This document shows, piece by piece, positions 6,037 to 46,747 of a DNA stretch of 64,000 bases. Location: contig OZ251456.1 in the NCBI GenBank assembly GCA_965242545.1, positions 316,076 to 380,075 on the forward strand, read 5' to 3'. Under the pieces are notes generated by a model. The model was not told the origin of the DNA and made no database searches. It worked only from the letters and a program-made list of their open reading frames with translations. Source of the stretch: a bacterium. Lineage in GTDB: Bacteria > UBA8248. How positions within the stretch are numbered: the stretch's first letter is position 1; each line of letters begins with the position of its first letter. The translations under genes were made by a program, and so were the position numbers.

Positions 6037-6753
6037 CGCGCTTCTTGTCTGGTCGTTTCGGGGCTCCGAGTTCTCGATCGGTCAATTCTGGCGCGGGATT
6101 CCCCAGCTGCTTCACTTCTTCGGCCGGATGGCGCCGCCGGACTGGTCGGTGTGGGACGTTCTGGCGGCCTCGGCGGTCGAGACGCTGCAAACCACCATCG
6201 CGGGCACGTTTCTGGGCGCGTTGTTCGCCTATCCTCTGGGCGTGCTGGCGGCCTCGAACTGGACGCCGGCCTGGGTGCATCTCCCCGTCAAGGCGTTCAT
6301 GGCGTTCATCCGCTCCATTCCGCTCCTGCTTCTCGCCCTGCTGTTCGTCTCCGCCGTGGGGCTCGGCCCCTTTCCCGGCGCGCTCGCGCTGGCGGCGCAC
6401 TCCGTCGGCGCGCTGGGCAGGTTCGTGGCGGAGGAGATCGAGGCGACCGACCCCGGACCCATGCTCGCCCTCCGGGGGACGGGCGCCTCCTCCGCGCAGG
6501 TCATTCAGCACGGCCTCATCCCCCAGGTGCTTCCGCAGATGGTCGCCCACCTCGCCATCCGCTTCGAGATGAACCTGCGCGACTCCACGATTCTGGGCCT
6601 AGTCGGCGCGGGCGGGCTGGGGTTTTACGTGTTCCTGTACGTCAAGCAGTTCCAGTGGCAGAAGTCGGGCGTGCTGGTGCTGGCCATCATCGCGCTGGTC
6701 TTCGCGGGCGAGTTCGCCGCCTGGCAGGTGCGAAAGCGGTTGATCTAGCCTAA

Positions 6754-6951
6754 TCAATTACCCCAACGTTCTTTTTCATACTTACTTTGATCTTCTCGGT
6801 TGAGCGGTTGCGATGAACAGTCTGCTCGAACAAAAAAATCTTGCTTGTCCTCAAATTTCGTGAAAACCGGTTTGCCACTTCGGGCTACCTTGATATGGCA
6901 AATTTCACAATCGTCATATATCGGGGTTAATTCTGGCTTGTAGCTCTTCAT
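6754..6951 (-). CDS. Small hypothetical protein (65 aa) in low-GC islet
   Basis: ORF overlapping the 3' end of the GmrSD-like gene. It has a low-GC composition like the islet, contains Cys/His (CEICH), and has no recognisable domain. Confidence 0.2.
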   Translation of the reverse strand: MKSYKPELTPIYDDCEICHIKVARSGKPVFTKFEDKQDFFVRADCSSQPLNREDQSKYEKERWGN

Positions 6952-8539
6952 ATATCCGCTCAGATCTGGCTTTCAGAAATGTGTCGTAATCATTGCTTTC
7001 AATTCCAAATCCGGCCAGATCAATGAAATGGGAATTTAATGCCTTATTGATCTCGGTGTTTTCATCTTGGAAAGTGCTGATATAGCTAGATGGTGCCTGC
7101 GCTTTGATTTTCTGTTTATTGAGACGTTCGCTAACCAGGGTTATATTGACCAAACTGTCGCTGTTGGAGGCATCAGCCTTGTTCTTTAAGTAAGCTTTGG
7201 GGAAGAAGTGATGATAATTCCTGCTGCTCGCTCTCTTCAGCCACGAGTTATCAAGAATTACTTTACCGCTATCTTGGAAGTCTTTCGGTTCTTGGGATGC
7301 CAGCAAACACAGAACTGCTTTACAGTAGCTGTTTCCTGCGCGGAAATTTGTATCAATCAAAGACTGCGGAGAGTCGAGATGGACTTTAATATCGCCATAA
7401 TCGGGCCGTTCATTAGCCAATATACGATCGATCCTTCTAGTGTCTTGAGCTAGTTTTGATTCCGTTGAGCTTGAATAACGACCTGACAAAGCCATGCGCC
7501 AGAAAAACTCTTGGAGATATTTTCGTTGGCGGGCCGTGGGTTCCTTCTTGTTCTGATAAAAGAAATACGCAAAAGGCACCAGCAAAAAATCGTATGGAAG
7601 TAGTTGCGATACCGGAATATGGTACTTGGTTCTGAAATACTCGATGCTGTCTTTGAGAGCGGAAATCGTCCCATCCCAATGATCGATGATAGATTGCTTG
7701 TCTAGCGCCAAAATAGTTTTACGCTTGCATTCCTTGGTGCGACTTAATGTCAATGATAGCAAATTTAGAATGACCGTGCTGGAAATACCTTCATATTCAA
7801 CATTTTCTAGGTCTTTGACGAAGCTCTTCCACTTCACTTGCATGTCAAATTTTTGGGCTTCGTCATAGGTTTTTGCAGACATGATTTCAAAGAGCGTAAG
7901 AGTTTGTCCGCTTGTGTTAATGCGAGTGAATACTTCGATTGCCGAGTCTATATCTTCTTTTCGCAAAACTACCGTTGAAAATTCGTAAGTCTTGAACGCC
8001 TCTGAATATGTGCCAACGGTTTTTAGCTCCTCGTGACTTAATCCATAATGTTTCCGAAGTTCTTCGCCGTCCGCAATGCCGGAAGTCAAAACTTTATGGA
8101 GCGATAGATATTTATTCCCTGTTGGTTCGGAAGTTATTATCTGATCGTCATTTTCGCAGTCGAGATTGACGACGATGTCGCGGTAATTGGTGGTCTTACT
8201 TTCGTCGCGCTTTGGTATTTCGGCGCCACGATAGGCGGCGAAGAGCGCCGTGATACGTTGCTGGCCGTCAAGTACATACTGGACCTTATTTCCTGCTCGT
8301 GTATGGGGAATTTTCAAATTGCCGACATTTCTGATATCGTTGAGACGCTGATCGGTTTCCCAAAGAATGAAGGTGCCGATTGGATAACCTTTAAGAATGC
8401 TGTCCAGTAATTTAGCGGTTTGCTCTATGCTCCAGACAGATTCGCGCTAGAATTTCGGAATTTTGATAATTCCTTTCTCAATTTCATAGATCAAATCAGA
8501 GTAGCCCTTTGAAGCTGGTTTTGGTTGTTCATGGCTCAT
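6914..8539 (-). pseudogene. GmrSD-like type IV restriction endonuclease (DUF262 N-terminal ParB-like domain plus DUF1524 HNH-like C-terminus), interrupted by an in-frame amber codon
   Basis: DGQQR motif and C-terminal HHFFPKAYL (DUF1524-like His-Me finger). Translation from ATG 8537-8539 reads MSHEQPKPASKGYSDLIYEIEKGIIKIPKF-TAG-RESVWSIEQTAKLLDSILKGYPIGTF. The TAG at 8447-8449 sits where the family has Gln in the conserved IP.FQR motif. The track ORF instead restarts at a TTG at 8317. GC is about 40%, against about 67% in the flanks. Confidence 0.6.
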
Positions 8540-8697
8540 GTCGAAATGATCCCTTTTGGGTTCAAGTGGGGATTGATCTGAATCGTTTTCAAAATACTTG
8601 GATTCCCGTTTATACTCCCTTCAAACGCCTTTTGATAATGTGGCGGGTCAACGCTTCTTCATCCAATCTTCGGCTTGGCCGAAGCGGGAGAAAACCC

Positions 8698-10377: not shown

Positions 10378-10517
10378 TCCATCGGGGAGAGGGAGACGCC
10401 TTTCGGGAAGCGTTCGCCGGGTTCGTTCTCACGGCGCTTGATGTGATTTCGACGCGGCGCGCTTTCTTTTGACGCGCTGTCGAAAATGGACTATGCGGGT
10501 TCCTTTTTGAGGGAGTT

Positions 10518-10805
10518 TTGACCGTGAGCGGATCCAGACCTCGCTCGATATGGACGGTTGCCGAGGCCAAGGCGCGGCTGTCGGAAATCCTGCGCCTCTC
10601 CGAAGAGGAAGGGCCGCAGCGCATCGGCGTGAGGAGGGCTTTCGTGGTGGCGCCGGAGCGCGCGTGGCGAAAGCGCGCGCCGGGTCGCCGCGATCCCTTG
10701 GGACGGTGGCTCGTTGACAACGTGCCGCGCGGCGCCGCTCTTGAAGCCCCGGACCGCCGCGAACCCGGCCGCGAGGTTCCGTTCCTGAAGACGGATGGTG
10801 AATGA
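10518..10805 (+). CDS. vapB: Type II antitoxin (VapB/Phd-like)
   Basis: 95-aa ORF immediately upstream of a PIN-domain gene with a 4-bp overlap. Contains an antitoxin-like N-terminal motif (AEAKARLSEIL). Confidence 0.65.
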   Translation: MTVSGSRPRSIWTVAEAKARLSEILRLSEEEGPQRIGVRRAFVVAPERAWRKRAPGRRDPLGRWLVDNVPRGAALEAPDRREPGREVPFLKTDGE

Positions 10806-11221
10806 GCGCCTGCCTCATCGACACGAACGTGATATCGGAGTTGACGAAGGCGTCGCCGGATTCGGGCGTCGTCGCGTTTCTGTCGGAACGCGATGATCTG
10901 TGGCTCTCCCCGGTTGTGGTTCACGAGCTGGAATTCGGCCTGCGCCGCCTTCCTCGCGGACGCCGCCGCGTCCGCATCAGAGCCGCCTTGTCCGCGTTCG
11001 TTGCGGCGTATGAGGATCGAATTCTGCCGGTGGGCCGTCCGGAAGCCGAGCGGGCGGCCGCGCTGAGGGCGCAGACGCATCGCGCCGGCCGGACCCTGCA
11101 TCTGGGCGATGCGCTCATTGCGGGGACGGCCATGGCGCGCGGCCTCTCGATAGCGACGCGGAATACCGGAGATTTCAAAGGGCTGGCCGTCAATGTCGTC
11201 AATCCGTGGCGAACCCCATGA
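10802..11221 (+). CDS. vapC: PIN-domain ribonuclease toxin VapC
   Basis: MSACLIDTNVISE... carries PIN acidic residues (D at position 7, later E and D). 139 aa, translationally coupled to the antitoxin. Confidence 0.75.
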   Translation: MSACLIDTNVISELTKASPDSGVVAFLSERDDLWLSPVVVHELEFGLRRLPRGRRRVRIRAALSAFVAAYEDRILPVGRPEAERAAALRAQTHRAGRTLHLGDALIAGTAMARGLSIATRNTGDFKGLAVNVVNPWRTP

Positions 11222-11426
11222 GCATCGCCGAATCCGTCGTCCCGGCGGCCGGACCGGCGAGCGAAGAATCGGGCGGCGCATTGTTCCCGCTTCGTCGTTT
11301 GTGATAGCTACCCTTCATTGAAAGCGCATTCAAAAAGCCTTCCGTTTCCCTCCGGCAAGGTTCGCCGTCCGCGCCGGCGCGCGGCGCCGGGATCGACGAC
11401 ATGAATTCACAAGAGGCGCGACGACC

Positions 11427-13796: not shown

Positions 13797-13874
13797 GTCC
13801 CCATCGTCTAGCCTGGCCCAGGACACCGGCCTTTCACGCCGGCAACAGGGGTTCGAATCCCCTTGGGGACGCCA
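13797..13874 (+). tRNA. tRNA-Glu (anticodon UUC)
   Basis: Cloverleaf read by hand. Acceptor GTCCCCA/TGGGGAC, D-arm TAGCCTGGCCCAGGA, anticodon stem CCGGC/GCCGG with loop CTTTCAC (UUC), T-arm AGGGGTTCGAATCCCCT, and an encoded 3' CCA. Confidence 0.85.
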
Positions 13875-13914
13875 GGGCGAAGGGGGGAGGCTCGGCGATG
13901 ATTGATAGAAGCGA

Positions 13915-15804
13915 ATGAAACAGCTCATCCTCACGAAAATCGATCCCGCATCGGACGAGCGCCAAGCCGAGCATCTGGGTCCCTGGTCGCTTTCAGACGC
14001 CCAGTTTTTCGAGTGGGAATGGGAAAAATACGGAATCAGGCGGGTATTGCAGGCCGAGGATATCCTGCCCGTTTCTCGCAGCCTGGAAAAGGTTTGTGAA
14101 TTTTACCTTCACCGCCTGGTCCGCCGGCAAAACGAAAGACACGGGCGCTCCTATTCCGCCCGATATTGGCGCATCTTGCTGATGCCGTGGCTTTGCAGGT
14201 TGGTCATGTGTTCTTTCGAGCGGTTTCTGCGAATCAGGAGTCGGATATCGAGCGGCGTTCCATATCTGGCGTATCTCTCGCCCCGGGATGAAGCCCCCTC
14301 ATCCATCGCAACGAGCCACTTTAATCGGATGATACTCGATGATCCGTTGAACCGCCTCATCTTCAGCAGATTTCTGCGCGCCTATGAACCCGAAGGATGG
14401 ATCATGCGGGACGGCGCGCCCGCCCCGCCGGATGAATATTTTTCCGTGAGCGATCAAAAAAAGACGTTCATACGGGACAACTATGGCGACCATGCCAAAG
14501 CCAGAAAATCGCAAAGAAAAATGGAAATATATCATTGGGCCAGCATTCTGGCCTGCAATTTGGGATGCGTCCAGTTTCATCGGGTTTATGGCCTGGGACT
14601 GCTGGACAGTCTGCATCTTTCTTTTCGCGTGATGCTTCGCAGCAGGAGACGCTGGAGGGATGCGGCGAGGTCGTTTCAGAAAATATCCGAAGCGGAAAAT
14701 AAAAATCTCTCGAAGGACGCCATGATTGAAGAGATCAAATCGATTCAGGGGATGAGTGCCGAAGAAGCGGAGATTTTCCTGCGGGTTCTGGATGGGTTGA
14801 TTGAAGAGACGATGCCGAAACAGTTCACGGAGTGTTTTCGGGAAAACGAGAAAAAGGCGCTGAGGAAAATAAGGGCGACGGCCCCCTGGACGGACGCGAT
14901 AGTCAGCGGGCTTGTGACGAGTGAAAACGACCCGTGGCGGTTTTATGCGGCCGGTCTCCTGGAGGATCGCCCCGTAAGGCTGATCGGCAGTCAGCACGGG
15001 GGATTGGTCGGCTTGGCCGAAGCGGCATCCTTTTACAATCTTGTGGAATACGAGACGGATGATCGGTTCGTATCGTGGGGCTGGGAGCGTCAGTCCGACT
15101 ATGAAGCAGCCGCGCCGGCTTCCTCTCCTCTTCTGTCGAAAATGAAGCGAGGCGCGAAGCGAAATTCATCCATCATTATGATAGGCTCCGCCTTGTTGGT
15201 CTATTCCGAATGGCTGCAAACGGGTTATCAGCCCGATGACATAGCGCGGCTTATGAAGAACAAAACAAGTTTCATCGAGCATCTGAAAAATGAATTGCGC
15301 TCCGCCTTGTGGTATCGGCCGCACGTCACCAAAGCGAGCGACCGCTATGACCGCTCCTATATGCAAGAAAGATACCCCGATTTGAAAATTTTGTCCGGGA
15401 AATTGCTAAACCATAAATCGAACCGGATGTCTTCCGCGTTGTCGCAATGCGGCGTTTGCGTTTTTGATGGGATGGGGGCTACGGAATTGTTCACGATGGC
15501 GGCGGAGATACCGGCCGTCTTTTTCTGGAACGAGAATGTGTGGCGGATCTCGCGTCAGGCGAAGCCCCATGTCGAAAAACTGTCGGCCGTGAATGTTGTT
15601 CACTCATCCCCGGAGAGCGCCGCGAGACACCTGAACGCCATCTGGCCCGATATCGATTCATGGTGGGAGGACGGCAGGACGCGGGAAGCCATCAGGGAAT
15701 TTGCGCATCGTTATTGTCGAAGCAGCGAAAACTGGCGTTCGGAATGGGTGGAATTGTTCTCTTCGGCGGATTCGGAATTATGGAAGCCAGCGAGCCGAAG
15801 ATGA
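13915..15804 (+). CDS. Large hypothetical protein (629 aa), possibly a glycan-locus transferase
   Basis: Long soluble ORF with no obvious catalytic motifs. First gene after tRNA-Glu and co-directional with the ABC exporter and sugar-nucleotide genes. From memory only, it resembles the ~600-aa uncharacterised transferase-like proteins of surface polysaccharide loci. Confidence 0.4.
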   Translation: MKQLILTKIDPASDERQAEHLGPWSLSDAQFFEWEWEKYGIRRVLQAEDILPVSRSLEKVCEFYLHRLVRRQNERHGRSYSARYWRILLMPWLCRLVMCSFERFLRIRSRISSGVPYLAYLSPRDEAPSSIATSHFNRMILDDPLNRLIFSRFLRAYEPEGWIMRDGAPAPPDEYFSVSDQKKTFIRDNYGDHAKARKSQRKMEIYHWASILACNLGCVQFHRVYGLGLLDSLHLSFRVMLRSRRRWRDAARSFQKISEAENKNLSKDAMIEEIKSIQGMSAEEAEIFLRVLDGLIEETMPKQFTECFRENEKKALRKIRATAPWTDAIVSGLVTSENDPWRFYAAGLLEDRPVRLIGSQHGGLVGLAEAASFYNLVEYETDDRFVSWGWERQSDYEAAAPASSPLLSKMKRGAKRNSSIIMIGSALLVYSEWLQTGYQPDDIARLMKNKTSFIEHLKNELRSALWYRPHVTKASDRYDRSYMQERYPDLKILSGKLLNHKSNRMSSALSQCGVCVFDGMGATELFTMAAEIPAVFFWNENVWRISRQAKPHVEKLSAVNVVHSSPESAARHLNAIWPDIDSWWEDGRTREAIREFAHRYCRSSENWRSEWVELFSSADSELWKPASRR

Positions 15805-15863
15805 AGAACCGACGGGCGCCTGCGCCCTCGCCATGCCGGAAAAGCAAAGGATAGAGAAATCGC

Positions 15864-17627
15864 ATGTTCGGCGATAAGCAAAAGAACATTCTCGCCGTCG
15901 CCCGGAATTACAAGCGGCTGTTGCTTTTATATTTTTTCGTTCTCGTTTCGGCGACGATGTTCGAGAGCATCGGCTTGGGCATGTTGATGCCCATTTTCCA
16001 AACGATACAAGGGATAGAAACAAACCATGTCCTTGAGGCGTACGCCAAATGGGGGCTTGGAATTATCGGCCTGGAGTATTCGTTCGCGAACCTTATCACG
16101 CTGTTCACAATCGCCATGCTGTTCAAATTCGCTTTGGTGGCGATTTCCACGCATCTCGCGCGGGTGCTGAGTTCGAGAATCACGTGCGATATGAGGGAAA
16201 AGGTTTTCAGAAACCTGATGAACCTTCCGCTCTCGTATTTTTATCAAAAAAAGACGGGCGATCTCATCGCCGTCCAATTCACCTCCACGCAGAATGCCGG
16301 CTTTCTTTTTGAACACATGATGCTCATCATCAACAGTATTTTTTTCTGCATCCTGTATCTGGCCATGAATCTGGCGGTCTCCTTTTCGCTCACCGTTCTG
16401 GTGGTAGGCTTGTTTTCCATCTCCTATCTTTTTCTCTTCCCGCGCTTTGAAAAGGGATATTTGAAGGGCGAAGAAGAGTCACGGGGCATGCAGGGCATCA
16501 ATTCCTATCTTCATGACGTCTTTTCCGGCGTCAAGACGGTAAAAGTGTTTGGAAATATCGCGCGCCACGTCGAACACTACAGAAGCCATACGAACGATTA
16601 TCGTCGGGTTTCCGTTGAGATCATGGACAACAAGATTATCGCCTCTCTGTTTTACGAGCCCCTGCTTTTTTTCTTCATGGTTCTTTGTCTGGTTTTCGCC
16701 GTCGTATTTCTGGAAATTCCCTTTGCGATTCTCGCCGTATTCCTGGTCATCTTTCTGCACGTTCTTCCCAAGCTGAAAGTGATCAACCACTACTGGCTCC
16801 TCGCCAATGAATTCGCTCCCCATCTGGAGAGGGTTCAGGAATACGCGGAAAACGGGAACAAGGAACATCCGACGGAAGGGCGCGCTTCCGTCGGCGAACT
16901 GAAAAAGAGCGTGCGATTCGAGAACGTGTCGTTCGCCTATCCGGGCTCCGGGGACGACGCGCTGAACGGGGTAAGCGCATCGGTCGAAAAAGGCGCGACG
17001 ACGGCGCTGGTGGGCTCCTCCGGAAGCGGGAAAACCACTTTCGTCGATCTGTTTCTGCGCCTTCATGATCCGACGCGGGGCGCCATTTACGTTGACGACG
17101 CGGACTTGAGGGACGTTTCCGTGGGCGAGTGGCGAAGCCTCATCGGGGTGGTGGAGCAGGACCCCTATCTTTTCAACGATACGGTCTACAACAACATTCT
17201 TTACGGAAATCCCGAAGCGGATGAAGCGCAGGCGCGGAAGGCGGCGGAAACGGCTTACGCCCATGAATACATCGAGGAATTGCCCGAAGGATACCGGACG
17301 GTCATCGGGAGTCGGGGGATCAAGTTGTCCGGCGGCCAGAAGCAGCGCCTCGCGCTCGCGAGAGCCCTGGTTCGCTCTCCCCGGATACTCGTGCTGGACG
17401 AGGCGACGAGTTCGCTCGACAGCGAATTCGAGCGTCTTATCCAGACCACCTTGCAGGATCTCGCCGGGCGGGTGACCATCCTGGTCGTCGCCCATCGTCT
17501 TTCCACCATCAAGAGCGCGGACAAGATTCTGGTTCTCGAGAATGGGCGAATCGTTCAGGAGGGGAGCCACGCCTCTCTCATGCGGGAGGAAGGGCGGTAT
17601 AAAAAGTTCCTGGCCTTGCAGGCGTAA
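15864..17627 (+). CDS. ABC exporter, fused permease plus ATPase (MsbA/lipid A-type family)
   Basis: N-terminal 6-TM domain, then Walker A GSSGSGKTT, signature LSGGQKQRLALARAL, Walker B ILVLDEATS and an H-loop. Confidence 0.85.
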   Translation: MFGDKQKNILAVARNYKRLLLLYFFVLVSATMFESIGLGMLMPIFQTIQGIETNHVLEAYAKWGLGIIGLEYSFANLITLFTIAMLFKFALVAISTHLARVLSSRITCDMREKVFRNLMNLPLSYFYQKKTGDLIAVQFTSTQNAGFLFEHMMLIINSIFFCILYLAMNLAVSFSLTVLVVGLFSISYLFLFPRFEKGYLKGEEESRGMQGINSYLHDVFSGVKTVKVFGNIARHVEHYRSHTNDYRRVSVEIMDNKIIASLFYEPLLFFFMVLCLVFAVVFLEIPFAILAVFLVIFLHVLPKLKVINHYWLLANEFAPHLERVQEYAENGNKEHPTEGRASVGELKKSVRFENVSFAYPGSGDDALNGVSASVEKGATTALVGSSGSGKTTFVDLFLRLHDPTRGAIYVDDADLRDVSVGEWRSLIGVVEQDPYLFNDTVYNNILYGNPEADEAQARKAAETAYAHEYIEELPEGYRTVIGSRGIKLSGGQKQRLALARALVRSPRILVLDEATSSLDSEFERLIQTTLQDLAGRVTILVVAHRLSTIKSADKILVLENGRIVQEGSHASLMREEGRYKKFLALQA

Positions 17628-17680
17628 GAATCTCAAGAGTTCGCTTGGAATCGTCGGATGAGGCATGAGGGCTTCAAAAA

Positions 17681-18475
17681 ATGAAGGGGAAGCGGAATCG
17701 CGTAGCTGCCTTGTCGTTGGGAAGGAAGGGAAGTGCGGGCTTTCCCGGCAAGAATACCTATCCGGTTCTCGGGAAGCCGCTTTCTTATTATCCCTTGAAG
17801 GCGGCGCTGGATGCGCCCGGCGTCGATGCCGTCTATCTTTCGACGGACGATGAGGAATTGATGGCGCTCGCCCGCGGCATGGGCGCCCGGGTGATCGTCC
17901 GCCCCCCGGAGCTGGCGACAAAAGAGGCTCTTAGCGAAGACGCCTATGCGCACGGGTATCGAGTCATTACGGATGAGCAGAAGAAACTGGGCGGGGAGAT
18001 GGAGTTCTTCGTGCTTCTCTATTGCAACGCGCCCATGATCCTGCCTGAAATGATTGAGGAGGGAATTCGGGTGTTGCGGGAGAACCCGTCCTACGATTCC
18101 GCCGTCACCGTTTCCTGCTATAATATGTGGAGTCCGCTCCGCGCGCGGAAGATTGAAGAGGACGGCCTTTTGCGTCCCTTCGTGCCGTTCGAGGCCTTTG
18201 GCGATCCGGAGACGTTGAGTTGCGACCGGGATTCACAGGGGGATTCGTGGTTTGCGGACGCGGGGGCGGCTATTGTTCGCCCTCGGTGTTTTGAAAACAT
18301 CAATAGCGGTCTATTGCCTTTCAAATGGATGGGACGGAAAATTTACCCGTTGCGGCAATGGGGAGGAGTGGACGTTGACCATGAATGGCAAATGCCGCTC
18401 GTGAAGCATTGGCTGATGGCGCACGGGTTCGACGCCGAAGGGCGCAGGAAGTCTCCGTTTGGTGATGAATCGTGA
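17681..18475 (+). CDS. CMP-sugar cytidylyltransferase (NeuA/KdsB acylneuraminate cytidylyltransferase family)
   Basis: N-terminal ALSLGRKGSAGFPGKN matches the CTP-binding loop of CMP-NeuAc/CMP-Kdo synthetases. 264 aa. Confidence 0.7.
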   Translation: MKGKRNRVAALSLGRKGSAGFPGKNTYPVLGKPLSYYPLKAALDAPGVDAVYLSTDDEELMALARGMGARVIVRPPELATKEALSEDAYAHGYRVITDEQKKLGGEMEFFVLLYCNAPMILPEMIEEGIRVLRENPSYDSAVTVSCYNMWSPLRARKIEEDGLLRPFVPFEAFGDPETLSCDRDSQGDSWFADAGAAIVRPRCFENINSGLLPFKWMGRKIYPLRQWGGVDVDHEWQMPLVKHWLMAHGFDAEGRRKSPFGDES

Positions 18476-18487
18476 GGTTCCGTTTGC

Positions 18488-19213
18488 ATGAATGTTTTGG
18501 TGACGGGCGCGAGTTCGGGCATCGGGCTGTCTATCCTGCGTCTTTTGCTCGACAAGGGAGACAGCATTTTCGCTCATTACAGAAAGAGCAGCCCCGAGTT
18601 GGAAAAGCTCGTCGAAGAATACGCTCCCCAAGGGCGCTTGCGGGTTCATCGGGCCGATTTTGAATATCCGGAGCAGGTGGAATCCCTGATGGACGCCTGC
18701 GACGCGGAGTGGGGGAGACTGGACGCGCTCGTCAACAACGCCGGCGCGGTAATCGAGGAAGCCAGGCTGGAGGAGATAGACCTGAAGCTTTGGAGGCGCG
18801 CCTTCGCGGTCAACGTGGAGGCCCCCTTTTTGCTGTCCCGGTGGGCGTTCCTGAAGATGGGGGAAGGGGGAGGGAAAATACTCAATATCGGCTCGATTTC
18901 CGCGAAATACGTTGGTGGGGAAACGACTTTTCACTACGGCGTCTCCAAGGCGACGGTGGACGCGCTGACCCTGGGTTTCGCCCGCCGGGGCGCGGACAAG
19001 GGCATTTGCGTCAACGCCGTCCGGCCGGGAGTGACGGATACGGACGCGCATCAGAAATACACGCCCGGCAAGGACATGACGGAAAGAATCTCCATGGTTC
19101 CGATGAAGAGAATGGCGCGGCCTGATGAAATCGCCTCACTGTCCGTTTATTTGCTCTCGAAGGAAGCGGACTACATTACGGGGCAAATCGTATCCATCGC
19201 GGGGGGAGATTGA
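18488..19213 (+). CDS. SDR-family short-chain dehydrogenase
   Basis: TGASSGIG Rossmann motif, NNAG, and a YxxxK-type catalytic region. 241 aa. Confidence 0.8.
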   Translation: MNVLVTGASSGIGLSILRLLLDKGDSIFAHYRKSSPELEKLVEEYAPQGRLRVHRADFEYPEQVESLMDACDAEWGRLDALVNNAGAVIEEARLEEIDLKLWRRAFAVNVEAPFLLSRWAFLKMGEGGGKILNIGSISAKYVGGETTFHYGVSKATVDALTLGFARRGADKGICVNAVRPGVTDTDAHQKYTPGKDMTERISMVPMKRMARPDEIASLSVYLLSKEADYITGQIVSIAGGD

Positions 19214-19216
19214 TTC

Positions 19217-20179
19217 TTGGGCGGGAAATGGAAAGTCGTTGTTTTCGGCGGTTCGGGCTTCATCGGCAGCCACTTGGCCGATGCGCTGTCTGATGAAGGA
19301 CATGAGGTTCTTCTGTTCGACTTGAAGCCCTCCGCGTATTTGCGGTCGGATCAAAGGATGTATGTCGGCGATATTCTGAACACCGAGCAAGTGCGTGAAG
19401 CGGTGAAGGGCCATGACGCCGTCTATAATTTCGCGGGCATCGCGGATCTTGATGACGCGAAAACAAAAGCCGCTCAAACTGTCGCCCAGAACGTCCTGGG
19501 AACTGTGAACATACTTGACGCGGCGCGCAGTGCGGGCGTCAAACGCTATATGCACGCCAGTTCCATATACGCTTACAGCGATCGAGGCGGTTTCTACCGG
19601 TGCAGCAAGCAGGCGGCGGAACTCTACATAGAAGAATACCAGAAGCAGTATGGGCTGAATTATGTGATTTTTCGCTTCGGAACCATATTCGGCACTCGGG
19701 CCGATGAAAGAAACAGCGTCCATCGCTATCTTCGGCAGGCGCTTTCCGAGAAGCGCATCGAAAGCTTCGTCGCCGGCGATGAGATTCGTGAATACGTCAA
19801 TGTAAAGGACGCGGCTCGCCTTTGCGTTCAGGTGCTTGCTGAGAATCCTGCCAGCCAGCACCTGATAATCACCGGCCCCTATCCCATGCGCACGAGAGAG
19901 TTTCTTGAAATGATAAATGAAATCGTGGGGGGAGGCGTCGAATTGAAGTTCGACGAGAATGGCCAGTCGGGCCACTATCGGATGACGCCCTACACGTTCG
20001 AGCCTAAAATCGGCCGGAAGCTCGCCATCAACGAGTATATGGACATGGGAGGAGGATTGCTGGAGTGCCTGCGCGAGATTTATGAGGATATGCAGGCGAC
20101 TTCACCCGGGAAAACGGCAGCCTTCGCGGACCCGCCTCCCCCGTCTTGTTCCCGTCCGCAGGCGGGGGGATCAGAATGA
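19217..20179 (+). CDS. NAD-dependent epimerase/dehydratase family protein
   Basis: GGSGFIGSH Rossmann motif. 320 aa, extended SDR. TTG start as in the track. Confidence 0.75.
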   Translation: MGGKWKVVVFGGSGFIGSHLADALSDEGHEVLLFDLKPSAYLRSDQRMYVGDILNTEQVREAVKGHDAVYNFAGIADLDDAKTKAAQTVAQNVLGTVNILDAARSAGVKRYMHASSIYAYSDRGGFYRCSKQAAELYIEEYQKQYGLNYVIFRFGTIFGTRADERNSVHRYLRQALSEKRIESFVAGDEIREYVNVKDAARLCVQVLAENPASQHLIITGPYPMRTREFLEMINEIVGGGVELKFDENGQSGHYRMTPYTFEPKIGRKLAINEYMDMGGGLLECLREIYEDMQATSPGKTAAFADPPPPSCSRPQAGGSE

Positions 20180-21000
20180 TAAGCGTCGTCATAACGGCCT
20201 ACAACGCCGAGGAATATGTTGCGGACGCCGTGAAAAGCATTCTGGCGCAGACGGAGGTCGATCTGGAATGCGTCATCGTCGATGACGGCTCGACGGACGA
20301 TACCGTCCGCGTATTGACGGGCTTCGGCGATCCTCGAATTCGTCTCATCGAAGCGGGACGAATCGGGCGCGTGAGAGCGCTCAACCTCGGCGTCCGCGAG
20401 AGCCGGGGGGAGTATGTCGCCATCCAGGACGCGGATGACTTGTCCCATCCCAAAAGACTGGAAATTCAAAGGCTGGCGATGGAGCAATCGCCGGATTATT
20501 GCGCCGTCGGTTCGCCCCCGTTCGCCTTTTACGCCAACGGGAGGCCCGATTGGCCCTCATTCGGGCCGGATGAGAAAAATCCTTCGTTAGCGGATATCGG
20601 AAGAAAACTCATGCTTTCCAATGCCGTCAACCACACGTCGCTGTTCGCCAGAAGCGAGGCGATGAAAAAAATTCAGGGCTACGATGAGAAATTTCGCATG
20701 ATTCATGATTTCGATTTGCTTGTCCGAATGTATGAAAATGGAATGAAGGTCGGGTTTTTGAAAGTTCCCGTGGCGGCGAAAAGAATTCATGTGGAGCAGT
20801 TTTTCGAGCGAAATACGAGGCTCCGGGACGTGTTTGACGGCATCCTTGTGCAAAGCAGGGCGATTCGCGCCTGTGGAGGCGGTCTCCCGTATCGCGTCCT
20901 GCTGCCGTTCTGGTTTTCGTATCGCTTGCTGCCGCCCAAAGCGCGCATGTGGATCAGGGCCAAGGGAGGCTATTTTTCCTGCGCCGACGAGCTGAAATAA
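20176..21000 (+). CDS. Family 2 glycosyltransferase
   Basis: ISVVITAYNAEEYV...VIVDDGSTDDT...QDADD is the GT2 DxD architecture. Start at ATG 20176. Confidence 0.8.
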   Translation: MISVVITAYNAEEYVADAVKSILAQTEVDLECVIVDDGSTDDTVRVLTGFGDPRIRLIEAGRIGRVRALNLGVRESRGEYVAIQDADDLSHPKRLEIQRLAMEQSPDYCAVGSPPFAFYANGRPDWPSFGPDEKNPSLADIGRKLMLSNAVNHTSLFARSEAMKKIQGYDEKFRMIHDFDLLVRMYENGMKVGFLKVPVAAKRIHVEQFFERNTRLRDVFDGILVQSRAIRACGGGLPYRVLLPFWFSYRLLPPKARMWIRAKGGYFSCADELK

Positions 21001-21157
21001 TCCACCCGTCTTTTGGAACTTTCTCGAAACCGCCGGCGCTCCGCCCTCTTGAAGATTTTTGCGTGGATTCGCCCGCTCGGTCAGTAAAATTCCACATGTT
21101 TCAAGGTTTGCGGTTTCATGGGCGGAGCCTCGAAAGACAAAAGGTTGTGGTTGAAGC

Positions 21158-23142
21158 ATGTTGTTGTTCGTTTTTGATGAGAGTTTCTCGGATGAAGAAG
21201 CGCCGGACGGGTTCCGGGGCGGGCGCGATTCGATCTCCCTGTTCGCCTTGACGGGAAACTGGAGGCTGGCGAGGCGTCTCGAGCGAGCGCTTCTGAAGCG
21301 CGGCCTGAAGCAGGTCGCCGCGCTGAATTCGGCCAGGCTCGTCGAGCGGGAAATCGAAGCCATTTGCCGCGAACTCCCAAAATGGTCCGCCGAGCGGGGG
21401 GACTCGCGCATCCGCGATGTCTCCGTTCGGCGTTTTTTCATGACGAGCGAGGACGGGATGAGCGGCTTCTGGCTGGGGCCCATTTCGGAGAAAAATCCCC
21501 TGAAAACGGATACGTTCCTCCGGCTGGCCCAGGCGCTTGCGGTTCAAGGAGAACTGCGAACCGGAAAATACGACGGGGTGGCCGTAGCCGTAAAGAACGG
21601 CAACCTCCACAAGTCCATCAGGCGCATGGCGGATGCTTTCAGCGTCCCGTTTCATGTTGTGGAAAAGCCCGGGACGCTCGCTGTCCAAAATATGAGGTCG
21701 CTCCTGCCGGGCATGTTGTCGCTCGCGCTCGCGGGCTGGCTGCAGGCCTGCTGGAAGGCCATGCTCGCCAAGGCGGTGATGGGCTTTTCCCGCCGCAGAG
21801 AGATTTCCACGCCCCCCCCGTGTTCGTCAGCTATTTTCCATATCTGAACGAGGATGCGGAAGGCGCGTTTCGCAACAAGTATTTCGAGCCGGTTCAGAAT
21901 ATCTGCCCGAAGCGAAAAGAGCGCATTTTCTGGCTTTTGATGTTCACGCATATCCAGGGCGCCACTTTTCTGGAATCCTTGAAAATCGCGAAGAAATTCA
22001 AGAAAAACGGAGAACGGCTCGCGTTCTTCGATGAGTTTTTCGGCTTCCGGGAAGCTGTCGGAGCGTTTTATTTATGGACAAGGCAGTTGGGAAGATATTT
22101 CTTTCTTGCGAGAAACTTCTCGGAAGAACGGATGTGCGGAGATCTGTTCCCCGTTGAATGCTATCCCCTCGTCAGAGATTTATGGCGCCGGTCGTTTTGC
22201 GGCGTCGAGGCCGTTCGCGGGTTGATCCAGTATAAAGCGTTCAGGAGGTTTTTCAGGGACTCGGGCGGCGCCTCTCAATGCGTGTATGCGTGCGAGATGC
22301 AGGCGTGGGAAAAGGCGCTGAATAAAGCGATAGAACGCGAAAGGCCGGAACTGGAGTCTGTCGGCTTCATTCACACGGTCATCTCCCGGCATTATGTGTT
22401 TTACGCTCACCATGAATCGGAGATAGAATCATCCCGTCTTGCCGATGGCTTGCCGCTCCCCGGGAAAATCGCCGCCAATGGCGCGGCGGCGCACGCTCTC
22501 CTCTCCGAGTGGGGCTATCCGGGCCTTTGCAAGGTGGAGGCGATACGCCAGTTGCCGCTGGCTGCGAGGATGAACGATCCGCGGCCCTTGGAGAAGGGGA
22601 GCAAGCCGACCTTGCTGGTTGCGGGAACCAGCGTCCAGGAAGAAACGAAGTCCCTGTTGCTGTTGCTTTCGGGGGCTTGTCCGCTCGCTGGCGAATGGGA
22701 CGTTTGGCTGAAGGGACATCCGGCAATGCCCATGGATTCATTGCTGAAGGGCTTGGGGATTCATCCGGCGGCGCGCCGTTGGGAGATCAAGGAAGGGGAT
22801 ATCAATACGCATCTTGAAAAGGCCGATGTCGTCCTCGTGCCCACGAGCGCCGTATCGGTGGACGCTCTTGCTTTCGGATGCGAGGTTTTCACGCTCGTTT
22901 TCAGTTCCGGATTCACCATGAACGTGTTGTCGGGATTTGAAGACTATTACCATTCCGTGAGCACGCCCGATGAATTGAGGGAAAAACTGGAGAACTACCT
23001 GAAAAACGGCTCTCGAAAGGGACTGGATGAGAAAAGGGATTTCGTGCGAAGCTACTGGAACCTTGACGCTCAGCTCCCGGGATGGCGAAGGCTGTTGAAC
23101 GTGGAGGCGAGCGATAAGGACAGCCTTGGCCCAGGTGGTTGA
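21158..23142 (+). pseudogene. KpsC/KpsS-like capsule polysaccharide biosynthesis protein (Capsule_synth-like, putative beta-Kdo-type transferase), broken by a frameshift at a C8 homopolymer
   Basis: ORF 21158..21847 (frame 2) and the C-terminal 430 aa of ORF 21364..23142 (frame 1) join at the C8 run 21812-21819; one extra C would fuse them into an ORF of about 660 aa. The C-terminal part has a GT-B-like block with a KGHP motif (LLVAGTSVQEE...WLKGHPAMP...VLVPTSAVSVDALAFGCEV), as in the KpsC/KpsS family. The first 150 aa of the frame-1 ORF are Arg-rich out-of-frame junk. Confidence 0.45.
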
Positions 23143-23417
23143 AAGTCCCCCGGGATATTTGATACTTGCGAGAACGTTCTGGATGTTGTGGCGATGAATA
23201 GAGGCATCGACCGGGGAGTGAAATGGTGAAACGGGCCTTGGAAAACGAAGACTTCGATCGGGCGGCTTGGAAAGGGGGAAACGCGCTTTCTGTTTTGGGG
23301 CTTCGCTGTCTTTGGCGGCGCTCCCGCCTCTTCGATCAGGCGCTTCAGGACGCCTATAGGGAATCTCTGGAAGCCCGCTTCAAGTGCGACACCCTTTTCG
23401 CCGTCATCACCGTTTGA

Positions 23418-24443
23418 ATGAGCATGACGCTTAAGGCGGGCATCGTCGGGTTCGGCGGCATGGGGCAGAGGCATTATCGCGCCTACGAGGGAACGCCCTG
23501 CGAAGTCGCCGCCATTTGTGAGTGGCGGCCCGAGCGCGTCGGCGAGGTTTTGCCGGATTTCCCCCCCGCCCGCGTTTATTCGGATTATCGGGAGCTGCTT
23601 GCGAATGAAGCGCTCGACGTCCTGAGCGTGGTCTCGAACGGGCCCACCCACGCGGAAATCGTCATCGCCGCCGCCGACGCCGGAATCCCCCGCATCGTCT
23701 GCGAGAAGCCGCTGGCGACGAGCCTCCGGGACGCCGACGGGGTGCTGGAGGCCGTGAGCCGGACGAGCGCCCGGGTGACGGTCAACCACATACGCCGCTG
23801 GAGCCCGGCGTATCATCGACTGAAGGACGCCGTCCGGGAAGGCGTCATAGGCGATCTTCGCCATGCGTATTTCCACATCGGCAGCGTGGGTCTCGGCAAT
23901 TACGTCATTCATATTTTCGATTTGATGCGGTTTCTTTCCGACTCCGAACCCGCCTGGGTGATGGGCGCGCTGGATCGCACGGGCACCCCCAATCCGAGAG
24001 GCCCGCAATATGAGGATCCAGCCGGATTCGGCGTCGTCGTATTCGAGAACGGCATGAGGAGCTACGTGGAGTCGTGCGAGGATACGGGCGTTCAGTATCT
24101 GATCGTTCTCGCGGGCGCATACGGCAGAATCGTCATCGACGAACTCAACGCCTCCTGGCGCGTGTACGCTCGCGCCGGGGAAGCCAGATCCGTTCCTTTG
24201 ACCCGATACGGGACGCCCATGGAGGAGAGGTCGTTCGACGGCGGAGATTTCGACATCGTTGAACTCACGCGGAACGGCATTCTCGAGCTTCTGGGGTCTG
24301 AGGAGTTGAGTTGCTCCCTGGAAGATGGAATGAAGTCGCTGGAAATGGTGATCGCCTTCCATGAATCCGAAGCGCTGGGCAACGGGCGTCTTGATTTTCC
24401 GTTGAGCGCGAAGGCTCGGGAGCGCGTTGTTCATATCGCCTGA
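23418..24443 (+). CDS. Gfo/Idh/MocA family oxidoreductase
   Basis: N-terminal Rossmann GIVGFGGMG, the EKP motif (CEKPLA) and a C-terminal alpha/beta domain. Confidence 0.8.
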   Translation: MSMTLKAGIVGFGGMGQRHYRAYEGTPCEVAAICEWRPERVGEVLPDFPPARVYSDYRELLANEALDVLSVVSNGPTHAEIVIAAADAGIPRIVCEKPLATSLRDADGVLEAVSRTSARVTVNHIRRWSPAYHRLKDAVREGVIGDLRHAYFHIGSVGLGNYVIHIFDLMRFLSDSEPAWVMGALDRTGTPNPRGPQYEDPAGFGVVVFENGMRSYVESCEDTGVQYLIVLAGAYGRIVIDELNASWRVYARAGEARSVPLTRYGTPMEERSFDGGDFDIVELTRNGILELLGSEELSCSLEDGMKSLEMVIAFHESEALGNGRLDFPLSAKARERVVHIA

Positions 24444-24524
24444 GCGCTTCACGGGCGGGATGAACGTCTCCTCGAAAAGAGGCTTTTCCCGATATACCGA
24501 TATGCCTGATTTTGAGCGGAAGGC

Positions 24525-25514
24525 GTGAGGATGAGCGAAGCTCTTGTCAGTCTTGGTTCTTTCGGCTCATTCAGCCGCAAGCCCCTGATGATTCTTGAAG
24601 AAGCGGGCATCGGATACTCCTTTCAGCCGCACCCGCGCCGCCCGAGCGAGAGCGAGATGTGCGGCCTTGTGGGCGAGACCCGTTATATCATCGCGGGCGT
24701 GGAGCCGCTTACGGCGAAGGTGATGGAAAGCGCCCCGAACCTGAGGCTCATCTCGCGCGTCGGCGTCGGGCTGGACAGCGTGGATCTGCTGGCGGCCAGG
24801 GAGCGGGGCATCCAGGTTGCGTATACGCCCGAGGCGCCCTCCGCGGCCGTGGCCGATTTGACCATCGCTCTGATGGCGTCCATGCTTCGGGGCATCCGCA
24901 AGGCGGACGCGGCTCTGCGCGAGGGAAGATGGGAGAGGCGGGTCGGCCGAGGGATTGGCGATGTGACGGCTGGAATTATCGGGGTGAATCGCATCGGCAA
25001 GCGCGTCGCCCGGCTCCTCAGGGCGTTCGGCGCGGACATTTTGGGCCACGACGTCAAGCCGGACGTGGATTTCGGCGCCGAAACCGGAATCGCCTGGGTG
25101 GAGAAAAAAGAAATTTTCCGGCGGGCGGACGTGATTACCCTCCACCTGCCCATGAGTCCGCGGACGGAGAATTACGTCGGGCGGGCGGAATTGTCGTTGA
25201 TGAAGCCGGACGCCGTCTTGGTGAATACCGCGCGCGGGGGACTGATTGACGAAAAAGCCCTGGCCGAGGCGCTGGAGGCGGGAAGAATCGGCGGAGCGGC
25301 GCTGGACGTGTTCGCCGATGAGCCCTACGCCGGCCCTCTGGCGAATCTCGACAATGTTCTGCTGACGAGTCATATCGGTTCTTTTACGAAAGAATCCCGG
25401 GTGCGGATGGAGTCGGAGGCGGCGGAAAGCGTGGTTTTTTTCCATCGGGGGCTCCCCGTCTCCCGATTGGTGCCGGAGGCGGAGTATGAATTGCAGGGGA
25501 TCGCGCCTGAATAG
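24525..25514 (+). CDS. D-isomer-specific 2-hydroxyacid dehydrogenase (PGDH/GyaR-like)
   Basis: NAD-binding GIIGVNRIGKRVA, catalytic-domain layout, and HIGSFT near the C-terminus. Confidence 0.8.
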   Translation: MRMSEALVSLGSFGSFSRKPLMILEEAGIGYSFQPHPRRPSESEMCGLVGETRYIIAGVEPLTAKVMESAPNLRLISRVGVGLDSVDLLAARERGIQVAYTPEAPSAAVADLTIALMASMLRGIRKADAALREGRWERRVGRGIGDVTAGIIGVNRIGKRVARLLRAFGADILGHDVKPDVDFGAETGIAWVEKKEIFRRADVITLHLPMSPRTENYVGRAELSLMKPDAVLVNTARGGLIDEKALAEALEAGRIGGAALDVFADEPYAGPLANLDNVLLTSHIGSFTKESRVRMESEAAESVVFFHRGLPVSRLVPEAEYELQGIAPE

Positions 25515-25573
25515 GGCTCGCCGGGCGCTGGCGACGCGCTTTGGAAGCGGGTTATGCTTTGACGCGCGGGTGA

Positions 25574-27631: not shown

Positions 27632-27760
27632 TTCCGCGGATTCGGCTCGCTCCTCGTCAAGGCTGAACGGAGGAAGGCTTCAAGCGTTCAGCCCTTCGCC
27701 CGCGTCGCGCTCCAGGGGCGCTTTCACAAGCCGCCGCGTCCTCGGGTAGCAACCCTTTCC

Positions 27761-46475: not shown

Positions 46476-46494
46476 GATGAAGCTTTACGGAGTA

Positions 46495-46731: not shown

Positions 46732-46747
46732 GGGCCAGCGTCCCTTC

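What the first reader, a model, noticed from the sequence alone, without database searches (positions are those of the whole stretch)
6750..8650. Low-GC islet carrying a GmrSD-like type IV restriction gene inactivated (or N-terminally reset) by a single amber codon
A ~1.9-kb segment at about 40% GC lies between phnE and an acyl-CoA ligase gene in a ~67% GC background. It encodes a DUF262 (DGQQR) plus DUF1524 (HHFFPKAYL) protein, the GmrSD family. From ATG 8537-8539 the reading frame is intact except for TAG at 8447-8449, which replaces the Gln codon of the conserved N-terminal IP.FQR motif (CAG to TAG is a single transition). Either this is a freshly pseudogenised modification-dependent restriction enzyme, as expected if the host DNA is modified, or a truncated variant restarts at the TTG at 8317 and loses about 75 aa of the ParB-like NTPase/DNA-binding domain. 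No integrase or repeats flank the islet.
Basis: seen in the sequence. Interest (0 to 1): 0.55.

Follow-up and report, generated by a model that had tools for sequence, protein, structure and literature searches.

The report
Decayed GmrSD–Schlafen phage-defence gene relic
The low-GC islet holds the wreck of a three-domain phage-defence gene (a BrxU/GmrSD-like DNA sensor-nuclease fused to a Schlafen-type RNase) that carries at least two disabling lesions, not one, so it is an ordinary decaying pseudogene of a recently described defence family.

Summary
The amber codon is real. TAG at 8449..8447 (minus strand) replaces a Gln that is invariant in 72 diverse relatives, and three orthologous loci in sister Nitrospinota genomes carry CAG there.

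It is not the only lesion. Intact orthologues are about 707-722 aa and have a third, C-terminal Schlafen/AlbA_2 domain (PF04326). In the window a 338-bp out-of-frame deletion (junction 6926/6925) has removed that domain's predicted catalytic E..E..D core. Its last ~55 codons survive out of frame (6925-6754).

A sister strain (L002) has a 287-bp deletion nested inside this one and keeps CAG. The domain loss therefore probably came before the amber.

An empty-site relative (L042) sets the islet at 6752-8685. No repeats or integrase flank it.

All three orthologues carry 18-22 changes at positions ≥98% conserved in the family, against 0-5 in most controls. About a quarter of copies in other phyla are also broken.

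The family matches BrxU and belongs by architecture to the "DUF262-Slfn" class of prokaryotic Schlafens. About a quarter of copies sit inside type I R-M operons.

A restart at TTG 8317 is unlikely: it has no Shine-Dalgarno sequence and would lose 28% of DUF262, including four invariant residues.

Verdict: a degraded member of a known kind, of low interest.

The parts
6752..8685 (.). Low-GC inserted islet (1934 bp) between phnE and the acyl-CoA ligase gene
   Evidence: The empty-site relative L042 has phnE, then 87 bp, then the ligase. Its homology to the window stops at 6751 and resumes at 8686. GC profile.
6914..8539 (-). Remaining main reading frame of the defence gene: DUF262/GmrSD_N, helical linker and a His-Me (DUF1524-like) nuclease region. 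It is interrupted by the amber and ends at a frameshift-created stop (TGA 6916..6914).
   Evidence: Translation. Pfam GmrSD_N 2.5e-30. PADLOC PDC-M55C 6.5e-64 and HEC-05 (=BrxU) 3.6e-35. Family profile against BrxU 7p9k, 3.8e-36.
8447..8449 (-). Amber codon (TAG) replacing the invariant Gln of the QR motif (codon 31; Q48 in P0002 numbering)
   Evidence: The orthologues have CAG. The Gln is invariant in 72 diverse relatives.
6925..6926 (-). Junction of a 338-bp out-of-frame deletion (ATTAAC|CCGATATATGAC, with CC microhomology). It removes P0002 residues ~555-667, including the Schlafen E573, E578 and D620/D621.
   Evidence: Alignment to L001. blastn breakpoints. Schlafen motif alignment.
6754..6925 (-). 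Out-of-frame 3' remnant of the Schlafen/AlbA_2 domain ('YDDCEICHIKVARSGKPVFTKFEDKQDFFVRADCSSQPLNREDQSKYEKERWGN'). It includes a 1-bp deletion in the G-run before the original stop.
   Evidence: ORF 6754..6951 matches the C-terminus of P0002.
8540..8685 (-). 5' untranslated and promoter region carried in with the islet. Its proximal ~100 bp are conserved among the Nitrospinota orthologues. The distal part, next to the ligase RBS, is variable.
   Evidence: Alignments. A + strand promoter-like site at 8588-8616 faces the ligase.
8315..8317 (-).
   Evidence: ORF list. No Shine-Dalgarno sequence upstream. The product lacks profile positions 1-55 of GmrSD_N.

Best explanation
The islet is a horizontally acquired, single-gene defence locus that is now a pseudogene.

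The ancestral gene encoded a ~707-aa protein with three modules:
- an N-terminal DUF262 (ParB/GmrS-like NTPase and sensor) domain with the QR, DGQQR and FxxxN motifs;
- a helical linker followed by a divergent DUF1524-type His-Me-finger nuclease ('YHHFFP...N...N');
- a C-terminal Schlafen/AlbA_2 RNase domain with the E..E..D triad.

By analogy with BrxU/GmrSD and with the validated DUF262-Slfn fusion EcoSlfn7, the intact protein probably senses phage (possibly modified) DNA through the DUF262/His-Me part. It would then act through DNA cleavage, Schlafen-type tRNA cleavage, or both. This step is inferred, not shown.

The gene was inserted into the 87-bp phnE-ligase spacer of a Nitrospinota ancestor. 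Since then it has evolved under relaxed constraint. In the window lineage it first lost the catalytic core of the Schlafen domain by deletion: a 287-bp event that is probably shared with L002, enlarged to 338 bp in the window. It then acquired CAG->TAG at the invariant Gln of the NTPase domain. The present sequence most likely makes no functional product.
For: Shown:
- The TAG and the ORF anatomy.
- The intact 722-aa orthologue P0002 sits in identical synteny and has CAG.
- L002 and L040/L041 also have CAG.
- The 338-bp frameshifting deletion and the surviving tail.
- The L002 287-bp deletion is nested within it, since 338 = 287 + 51.
- The empty site in L042.
- Pfam on P0002: GmrSD_N 2e-32, SLFN_AlbA_2 2.9e-15, GmrSD_C 3.4e-4.
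- The family profile hits BrxU at 3.8e-36, with HFFP aligned to BrxU HIYP.
- The family profile hits SLFN11/12/13/14, with 'GESxxxEFK' and 'GVDD' aligned.
- Q48, H459 and N481 are invariant in 72 relatives.
- The three Nitrospinota copies carry 18-22 changes at family positions conserved at >=98%, against 0-5 (one case of 11) in controls.
- dN/dS is 0.36-0.47 for the islet gene against 0.11-0.16 for the flanking genes in the within-species pairs; the more distant L040 pairs give 0.25-0.30.
- 8-9 of 37 copies in other phyla are also broken or truncated.

From the literature:
- DUF262-Slfn fusions are one class of prokaryotic Schlafens, and EcoSlfn7 protects against T7 and other phages (PMC13056530).
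- BrxU is HEC-05. GmrSD-like genes embedded in type I R-M operons are known (bioRxiv 10.1101/2024.01.29.577857 and PMC11411939).
Against: - The read-level support for the TAG and for the deletion cannot be checked here. Either could be an assembly error or a minority variant.
- Many relatives in the wider family (~540 aa) naturally lack a Schlafen domain. The deletion alone might therefore leave a working BrxU-like enzyme, and only the amber would then be inactivating.
- The window-branch dN/dS (~0.3) is not near 1, so the final inactivation may be fairly recent.
- The biochemical roles assigned to the three domains are inferred from homology. The AlphaFold model was too poor to use (pLDDT 55).
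Confidence: 0.82

Rival explanations
1. A functional N-terminally reset enzyme. Translation restarts at TTG 8317 and gives a 467-aa protein that keeps DGQQR and the His-Me nuclease and still works as a restriction enzyme or toxin.
For: An uninterrupted 467-codon ORF exists. It still matches GmrSD_N (4.1e-13) and weakly matches GmrSD_C. DGQQR, FxxxN and HHFFP are retained.
Against: - The product lacks Pfam profile positions 1-55 of 199.
- It lacks four of the 16 residues that are invariant in the wider family: P45, Q48, W53 and W77.
- There is no Shine-Dalgarno sequence before the TTG.
- No natural relative among the best 150 representatives is described as starting there. The short hits in that list look like fragments.
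- The Schlafen domain is also lost, and eight private changes hit conserved positions.
Confidence: 0.05
2. The TAG is a sequencing or assembly error, or a minority allele. The strain really makes a 541-aa BrxU-like two-domain enzyme that has merely shed its Schlafen domain, a functional 'core' form like most of the wider family.
For: - Most relatives at 30-48% identity are ~540 aa and lack a Schlafen domain.
- L002 keeps an open 528-aa frame with CAG after its own Schlafen deletion.
- The amber is a single transition.
- The window appears to come from metagenome-type data: its relatives are all MAG contigs.
Against: - The window copy carries further private substitutions at conserved positions: P81R, S98A, G112D, K114S, N424S, N461D and L539P. 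This fits a gene that is already unconstrained.
- Within the tight 707-aa clade, short forms co-occur with other damage.
- There is no direct evidence of an error.
Confidence: 0.1
3. The relic is retained because its AT-rich 5' end now serves as the promoter of the ligase gene. The insertion cut the ligase off from the phn operon, so the islet persists for a regulatory reason rather than a coding one.
For: - In the empty-site relative the ligase follows phnE by 87 bp on the same strand.
- In the window an opposite-strand gene intervenes.
- A + strand sigma-70-like site (TTCAAA-17-TATACT, 8588-8616) lies in the islet segment that is conserved among the orthologues, and it faces the ligase.
Against: - The promoter scan found 6 sites against 3.2 expected, so this is weak evidence.
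- This would explain retention of ~100 bp, not of 1.9 kb.
- It is compatible with the best explanation rather than an alternative to it.
Confidence: 0.15

Closest known systems
BrxU (= HEC-05), GmrSD-family type IV restriction enzyme (PDB 7P9K)
   Same: It is the best solved-structure match: 1e-9 with a single sequence and 3.8e-36 with the family profile. The match covers DUF262, the linker and the nuclease motif. PADLOC HEC-05 matches at 3.6e-35 over the full length of the core. The QR, DGQQR and FxxxN motifs are shared, and 'HFFP' aligns with BrxU 'HIYP'.
   Different: The intact family has an extra C-terminal Schlafen domain. The acidic residue before the catalytic His (BrxU DH) is His here (HH). 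Pfam GmrSD_C is only sub-threshold. The window copy is a pseudogene. Modification dependence is untested.
DUF262-Slfn prokaryotic Schlafens (e.g. EcoSlfn7 of E. coli UC4224; Perez Taboada et al. 2026, PMC13056530)
   Same: The architecture is the same as defined in that paper: a PF04326 domain of more than 100 aa fused to DUF262. P0002 has PF04326 at residues 573-709, E=2.9e-15. The E..E..D motif aligns with SLFN11/12/13/14. EcoSlfn7 is an experimentally validated phage defence.
   Different: No close relative was found in E. coli genomes by DNA search. Whether EcoSlfn7 also has a His-Me nuclease module is unknown to me. In the window the Schlafen core is deleted.
TgvAB / RloF-type GmrSD-like genes embedded in type I R-M operons; PrrC anticodon nuclease in EcoprrI
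   Same: In 10 of 38 loci, family members lie inside or next to a type I R-M cluster, in most of them in the order hsdR - X - hsdM - hsdS. TgvAB is embedded in the Vibrio VPI-2 type I R-M in the same way. From my own knowledge, PrrC is a tRNA anticodon nuclease similarly embedded in a type I R-M.
   Different: TgvAB is a two-protein system without a Schlafen domain. PrrC is an ABC-ATPase/HEPN-type nuclease and is not homologous. The window copy is solitary, with no R-M genes in 64 kb.
PADLOC candidate PDC-M55 (component C)
   Same: It is the best PADLOC model: 6.5e-64, covering residues 6-535 against model positions 10-532 of 554.
   Different: PDC-M55 is an uncharacterised multi-gene candidate, and no paper mentioning it was found. 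Its partner genes are not present next to the window gene.

Membership tests
GmrSD family (DUF262 + DUF1524 type IV restriction enzymes, incl. BrxU, SspE) | N-terminal DUF262/GmrS domain (Pfam PF03235) above the gathering score | tested here: met
   106.5 bits against a cut-off of 33.2 for the codon-repaired window protein. All 72 relatives match.
GmrSD family (DUF262 + DUF1524 type IV restriction enzymes, incl. BrxU, SspE) | The three DUF262 motifs QR, DGQQR and FxxxN are intact | tested here: not met
   DGQQR ('VLDGQQRITAL') and FxxxN ('FTRIN') are present. The Q of the QR motif is a TAG stop in the window. The orthologue P0002 has all three, apart from an R222H change inside FxxxN.
GmrSD family (DUF262 + DUF1524 type IV restriction enzymes, incl. 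BrxU, SspE) | C-terminal DUF1524/GmrD His-Me-finger nuclease (PF07510; catalytic His, loop Asn, helix Asn) | tested here: inconclusive
   Pfam gives 20.7-20.9 bits, below the cut-off of 23. 23 of 72 relatives match at E<=0.01. The family profile aligns 'HFFPK...aNitl...lNk' to BrxU 'HIYPK...PNLQL...INN', but that second stretch alone scores only 15.2 bits, i-Evalue 0.063. H459 and N481 are invariant and N490 is nearly invariant. No usable 3D model was obtained.
GmrSD family (DUF262 + DUF1524 type IV restriction enzymes, incl. BrxU, SspE) | Modification-dependent, NTP-stimulated DNA cleavage | not testable with these tools
   This needs biochemistry on an intact orthologue.
Prokaryotic Schlafens, DUF262-Slfn class (Perez Taboada et al. 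2026) | Full-length PF04326 Schlafen/AlbA_2 domain (>100 aa) | tested here: not met
   Only the last ~55 codons remain in the window, and they are out of frame. No PF04326 hit was found for the window products. The feature is met in the orthologue P0002 (residues 573-709, model positions 1-118 of 118, E=2.9e-15) and in most of the top 120 homologues.
Prokaryotic Schlafens, DUF262-Slfn class (Perez Taboada et al. 2026) | Schlafen catalytic E..E..D residues | tested here: not met
   The 338-bp deletion removes them from the window. In intact family members 'GESDTVEFK' and 'GxDD' are nearly invariant and align with SLFN11/12/13/14. Which residues are catalytic is taken from my knowledge of SLFN11/13.
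Prokaryotic Schlafens, DUF262-Slfn class (Perez Taboada et al. 2026) | Fusion to DUF262 in one polypeptide | tested here: met
   Met in the ancestral and orthologous form. In the window the fusion is broken by the frameshift.
Type I R-M-embedded defence genes (TgvAB/RloF/PrrC-like arrangement) | Location inside an hsdR/hsdM/hsdS operon | tested here: not met
   The window gene lies between phnE and an acyl-CoA ligase, and no hsd genes are found in 64 kb. The feature is met in 10 of 38 loci of other phyla.

The most novel reading that the evidence does not exclude
The intact family may be a conserved 'double-nuclease' guard. It is 70-75% identical in protein across more than 12 bacterial phyla and Nitrosopumilus, and often sits between hsdR and hsdM. 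A BrxU-like DNA sensor would control a Schlafen tRNase and work with, or watch over, a type I R-M system in the manner of PrrC with EcoprrI. Orphan copies that lose that partner, like the one in this window, would then be costly. They would decay in a set order: the Schlafen effector first, as in the nested deletions of the window and L002, and the sensor second, as with the amber.
Probability: 0.15. Interest if true: 0.6.

Novelty: new member of a known kind. Interest (0 to 1): 0.28.

Why it matters
For this window it matters little. The locus is a dead copy of a defence gene, and it should be annotated as a pseudogene of a DUF262 / His-Me / Schlafen fusion, not as a GmrSD enzyme with one stop codon.

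The comparison does give two things:
- A clean natural series for how such genes decay after transfer: empty site, intact copy, Schlafen-deleted copy, then Schlafen-deleted plus amber.
- A pointer to an unusually conserved, cross-domain subfamily of DUF262-Schlafen proteins. It is frequently embedded in type I R-M operons and would be a good experimental model for how bacterial Schlafens are controlled.

Tried and rejected
- **Exact-match look-up.** Looking up the window's phnE product found nothing.
- **AlphaFold2.** The model of P0002, built on a shallow 28-sequence alignment, was poor (mean pLDDT 55; the nuclease region below 50). I ran no fold search and make no structural claim. More diverse sequences came from a tool whose proteins are not accepted for structure prediction.
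- **Literature.** 'DUF262 + AlbA_2' and 'PDC-M55' returned nothing. The supplements of the Schlafen papers are not held, so EcoSlfn7 could not be compared directly.
- **E. coli and plasmids.** A DNA search of E. coli genomes with a gammaproteobacterial family member found no match. Plasmids hold only relatives at <=54% identity.
- **Mobility signatures.** There are no convincing direct or inverted repeats at the islet ends and no adjacent tRNA. DNA homology with other phyla stops at the coding region. The insertion mechanism remains unknown.
- **Amelioration.** I rejected it as the cause of the high divergence of the islet gene, because AT->GC and GC->AT changes are balanced.
- **Recent rampant HGT.** I rejected it as the explanation for the cross-phylum conservation. 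Nucleotide identity (66-72%) is below protein identity (70-75%), so synonymous sites look saturated.
- **Host DNA modification.** I found no methyltransferase or modification genes among 47 window ORFs.
- **Preservation of embedded copies.** Copies embedded in an R-M operon seem better preserved than solitary ones (about 1 of 10 degraded against about 9 of 28). The counts are too small and contig ends are too ambiguous, so I report this as a trend only.
Full report
**Observation.** The composition profile shows 39-49% GC from about 6750 to 8650, inside a background of 63-78%. On the minus strand an ORF starts at ATG 8539..8537. Its codon 31 is TAG (8449..8447), in the context IKIPKF*RESVW. The frame then runs on to a stop at 6916..6914. 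With the stop read as Gln, the 541-aa product matches Pfam GmrSD_N/DUF262 (E=2.5e-30, residues 14-223). It gives no GmrSD_C/DUF1524 hit at E<=0.1. PADLOC gives PDC-M55C (6.5e-64, full length) and HEC-05 (3.6e-35). The flanks are a phnE-type permease, whose stop codon is 6746-6748, and an AMP-binding ligase with ATG at 8698.

Most of the top 120 homologues are about 707 aa and carry PF03235 plus PF04326 (Schlafen/AlbA_2). The extra domain is C-terminal. The 65-aa ORF at 6754..6951 reads ...YDDCEICHIKVARSGKPVFTKFEDKQDFFVRADCSSQPLNREDQSKYEKERWGN, which is the extreme C-terminus of the 722-aa homologue P0002.

P0002 is encoded on a contig (L001) with exactly the same neighbours: ligase | X | phnE | ABC ATPase | phosphonate-binding protein. 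Aligning L001 with the window shows three differences in the window:
- CAG in L001 where the window has TAG.
- A 338-bp gap in the window between ...GCCAGAATTAAC and CCGATATATGAC... (window 6926/6925). It is not a multiple of three, and it creates the stop at 6916..6914.
- A 1-bp deletion in the G-run before the original TAA.

The deletion removes P0002 residues ~555-667. That is 69% of the PF04326 match, which spans residues 573-709.

**Orthologues and timing.**
- L002 has a ligase segment 97.3% identical in nucleotides to the window. It has CAG, an in-frame 33-bp deletion and its own 287-bp out-of-frame deletion. That deletion starts 3 bp from the window's left breakpoint and lies wholly inside the window's gap, since 338 = 287 + 51.
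- L040/L041 have a ligase gene 89% identical in nucleotides. They carry the N-terminal part of the gene, with CAG.
- L042 has a ligase protein 78% identical and lies on a 977-kb contig. It has phnE followed after 87 bp by the ligase. Its homology to the window stops at 6751 and resumes at 8686.

The islet is therefore 6752-8685. It was inserted before the window/L001/L002/L040 lineages split. The Schlafen deletion plausibly predates the window-specific amber.

L043/L044 are 97.4% identical to the window in the ligase. They have an unrelated high-GC ORF tail upstream, and their homology to the window also starts at 8686. I could not explain this.

The ligase homologues that carry a source name are from Nitrospinota.

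**State of selection.**
- Between the window and L001 the ligase and phnE are 97.7% and 98.3% identical (dS 0.061 and 0.046; dN/dS 0.16). The islet gene is 89% identical (dS 0.24, dN 0.086, dN/dS 0.36).
- The differences are strongly clustered: index of dispersion 3-5, with none of 2000 permutations reaching the observed value.
- They show no AT->GC bias.
- At the 327 alignment columns conserved at >=98% in 113 full-length family members, P0002, P0001 and the window carry 20, 18 and 22 changes. Eight control members carry 0-5, with one at 11. Several changes are shared by all three.

The copy has therefore been under relaxed constraint throughout this lineage. The excess synonymous divergence and the mosaic pattern remain unexplained. 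Recombination between alleles is a candidate.

**Identity of the family.**
- *DUF262.* A profile of 72 diverse relatives at 28-55% identity has these invariant residues (P0002 numbering): P45, Q48, W53, W77, D108, G109, R112, N224, L230, P434, H459, N481, P499, Y502, F537 and R541. Q48 is the residue hit by the amber. The DUF262 motifs QR, DGQQR and FxxxN are those used in the GmrSD literature (PMC11411939).
- *Nuclease.* This profile hits BrxU (7P9K) at 3.8e-36 in two stretches. The second is weak on its own (15.2 bits, i-Evalue 0.063). It aligns 'HFFPK...NitL...lNk' with BrxU 'HIYPK...NLQL...INN'. GmrSD_C is a sub-threshold hit in P0002 and in the window's restart ORF. It matches 23 of the 72 relatives at E<=0.01. 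The His-Me nuclease assignment is therefore reasonable but not proven.
- *Schlafen.* The profile of the 707-aa clade hits SLFN11 (7.3e-6), SLFN12, SLFN14 and rat Slfn13. 'GESDTVEFK' and 'GxDD' align with the Schlafen E..E..D region, and these residues are nearly invariant in the clade.
- *Literature.* Perez Taboada et al. (Nat Microbiol 2026, PMC13056530) define prokaryotic Schlafens by a PF04326 domain of more than 100 aa. They list DUF262 fusions as 1.8% of them, and show that the DUF262-Slfn protein EcoSlfn7 protects E. coli against T7 and other phages. HEC-05 is BrxU, and GmrSD-like genes are known to be embedded in Hma, BREX and type I R-M systems (bioRxiv 10.1101/2024.01.29.577857). TgvAB is the Vibrio example.

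**Distribution and context.**
- A scan of species-representative genomes found 37 loci, in Gamma-, Alpha-, Delta- and Zetaproteobacteria, Nitrospinales, Dadabacteria, Zixibacteria, Gracilibacteria, Fraserbacteria, Chloroflexota and Nitrosopumilus. Most are 63-75% identical to P0002 in protein.
- Their nucleotide identity to the window is only 65-73%, and the homology is confined to the ORF.
- The gene's GC (34-48%) is at or below that of its flanks in nearly all loci.
- In 10 of 38 loci the gene lies inside or next to a type I R-M cluster, in most of them as hsdR - X - hsdM - hsdS. In L003 a class II pAgo follows.
- Eight or nine of the 37 copies are themselves broken, by stops, frameshifts, truncations or loss of the Schlafen domain.
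- The wider family has 672 representative clusters below 1e-30. Most of its members are about 540 aa with no Schlafen domain.

**The restart hypothesis.** The first start codon after the amber is TTG 8317. Its product matches GmrSD_N only from profile position 56 of 199. It lacks four invariant residues. No Shine-Dalgarno sequence precedes it. The alignment clearly does extend upstream, so the upstream part is genuine coding sequence and the restart product would be a crippled domain.

**Other points.** No flanking repeats were found. The only tRNA is at 13797-13874. The other 47 ORFs of the window are metabolic, transport and glycan genes plus one PIN toxin. There is no methyltransferase and no convincing defence hit. 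TAG is used as a normal stop in this genome, for example by phnE at 6746-6748.

**Conclusion.** The locus is a multiply damaged pseudogene of a DUF262 / His-Me / Schlafen fusion defence gene. It was acquired as a single-gene islet by an ancestor of this Nitrospinota lineage. It is a new, dead member of a known kind. The mechanism given for the intact protein is inferred from homology and not shown: DNA sensing and NTPase activity by DUF262, DNA cleavage by the His-Me module, and tRNA cleavage by the Schlafen domain.

Noticed in passing
window 10518-11221: A toxin-antitoxin pair: a 95-aa protein with a weak Phd/YefM match, plus a PIN-domain toxin (4.8e-17). It is present in the window and in the distant relative L042. 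It is absent from the closer relatives L001, L040 and L043, which lack window 10393-11402.
   Followed up: partly
window 45777-46740: A second small low-GC patch (about 50% GC in the 46-47 kb bin, against about 65% around it). It holds a 232-aa minus-strand ORF that has no Pfam match and begins with a stretch rich in hydrophobic residues. A 78-aa proline-rich ORF lies next to it.
   Followed up: partly
L043:1-232 and L044:1-103 (counterpart of window ~8686): Two contigs whose ligase is 97.4% identical to the window carry an unrelated high-GC ORF tail ('...EEIRRIEGWMLGRQLPG*', no Pfam hit) directly upstream of the ligase. Their homology to the window starts at 8686, the same point as in the empty-site relative. 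The spot just upstream of the ligase RBS therefore seems to be a recurrent junction.
   Followed up: partly
window 6754-8539 versus L001:10052-12169: The islet gene is about four times more diverged at synonymous sites than its flanking genes (dS 0.24 against 0.05-0.06). The differences fall in clusters, and there is no AT-to-GC bias. This suggests allele exchange by recombination, but it was not resolved.
   Followed up: partly
L003-L039 (family loci from species-representative genomes): The 707-aa DUF262-Schlafen clade is 63-75% identical in protein in most loci across more than a dozen phyla, including the archaeon Nitrosopumilus. Nucleotide identity is lower than protein identity. That is unusually strong purifying selection for a defence gene. 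About a quarter of the copies are embedded in or next to a type I R-M cluster, usually between hsdR and hsdM.
   Followed up: partly
L003:13512-15449: A class II prokaryotic Argonaute (PADLOC pAgo_II, 1.6e-193) lies directly after the hsdR-X-hsdM-hsdS cluster. Together they form a small defence island around an intact family member.
   Followed up: no
window 13797-29000: GC drops to 50-61% immediately after tRNA-Glu(ttc) at 13797-13874, and stays low over a polysaccharide/glycan gene cluster (LIC12162, ABC exporter, CTP transferase, SDR and epimerase in the L001 annotation; Wzy_C and Bac_transf in the window). The cluster is syntenic in relatives, so it is probably an old glycan island.
   Followed up: no
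window 8588-8616 (+ strand): A sigma-70-like promoter match (TTCAAA-17-TATACT) lies in the part of the islet's 5' region that is conserved among the orthologues. It points toward the ligase gene, which the insertion separated from the phn operon.
   Followed up: no
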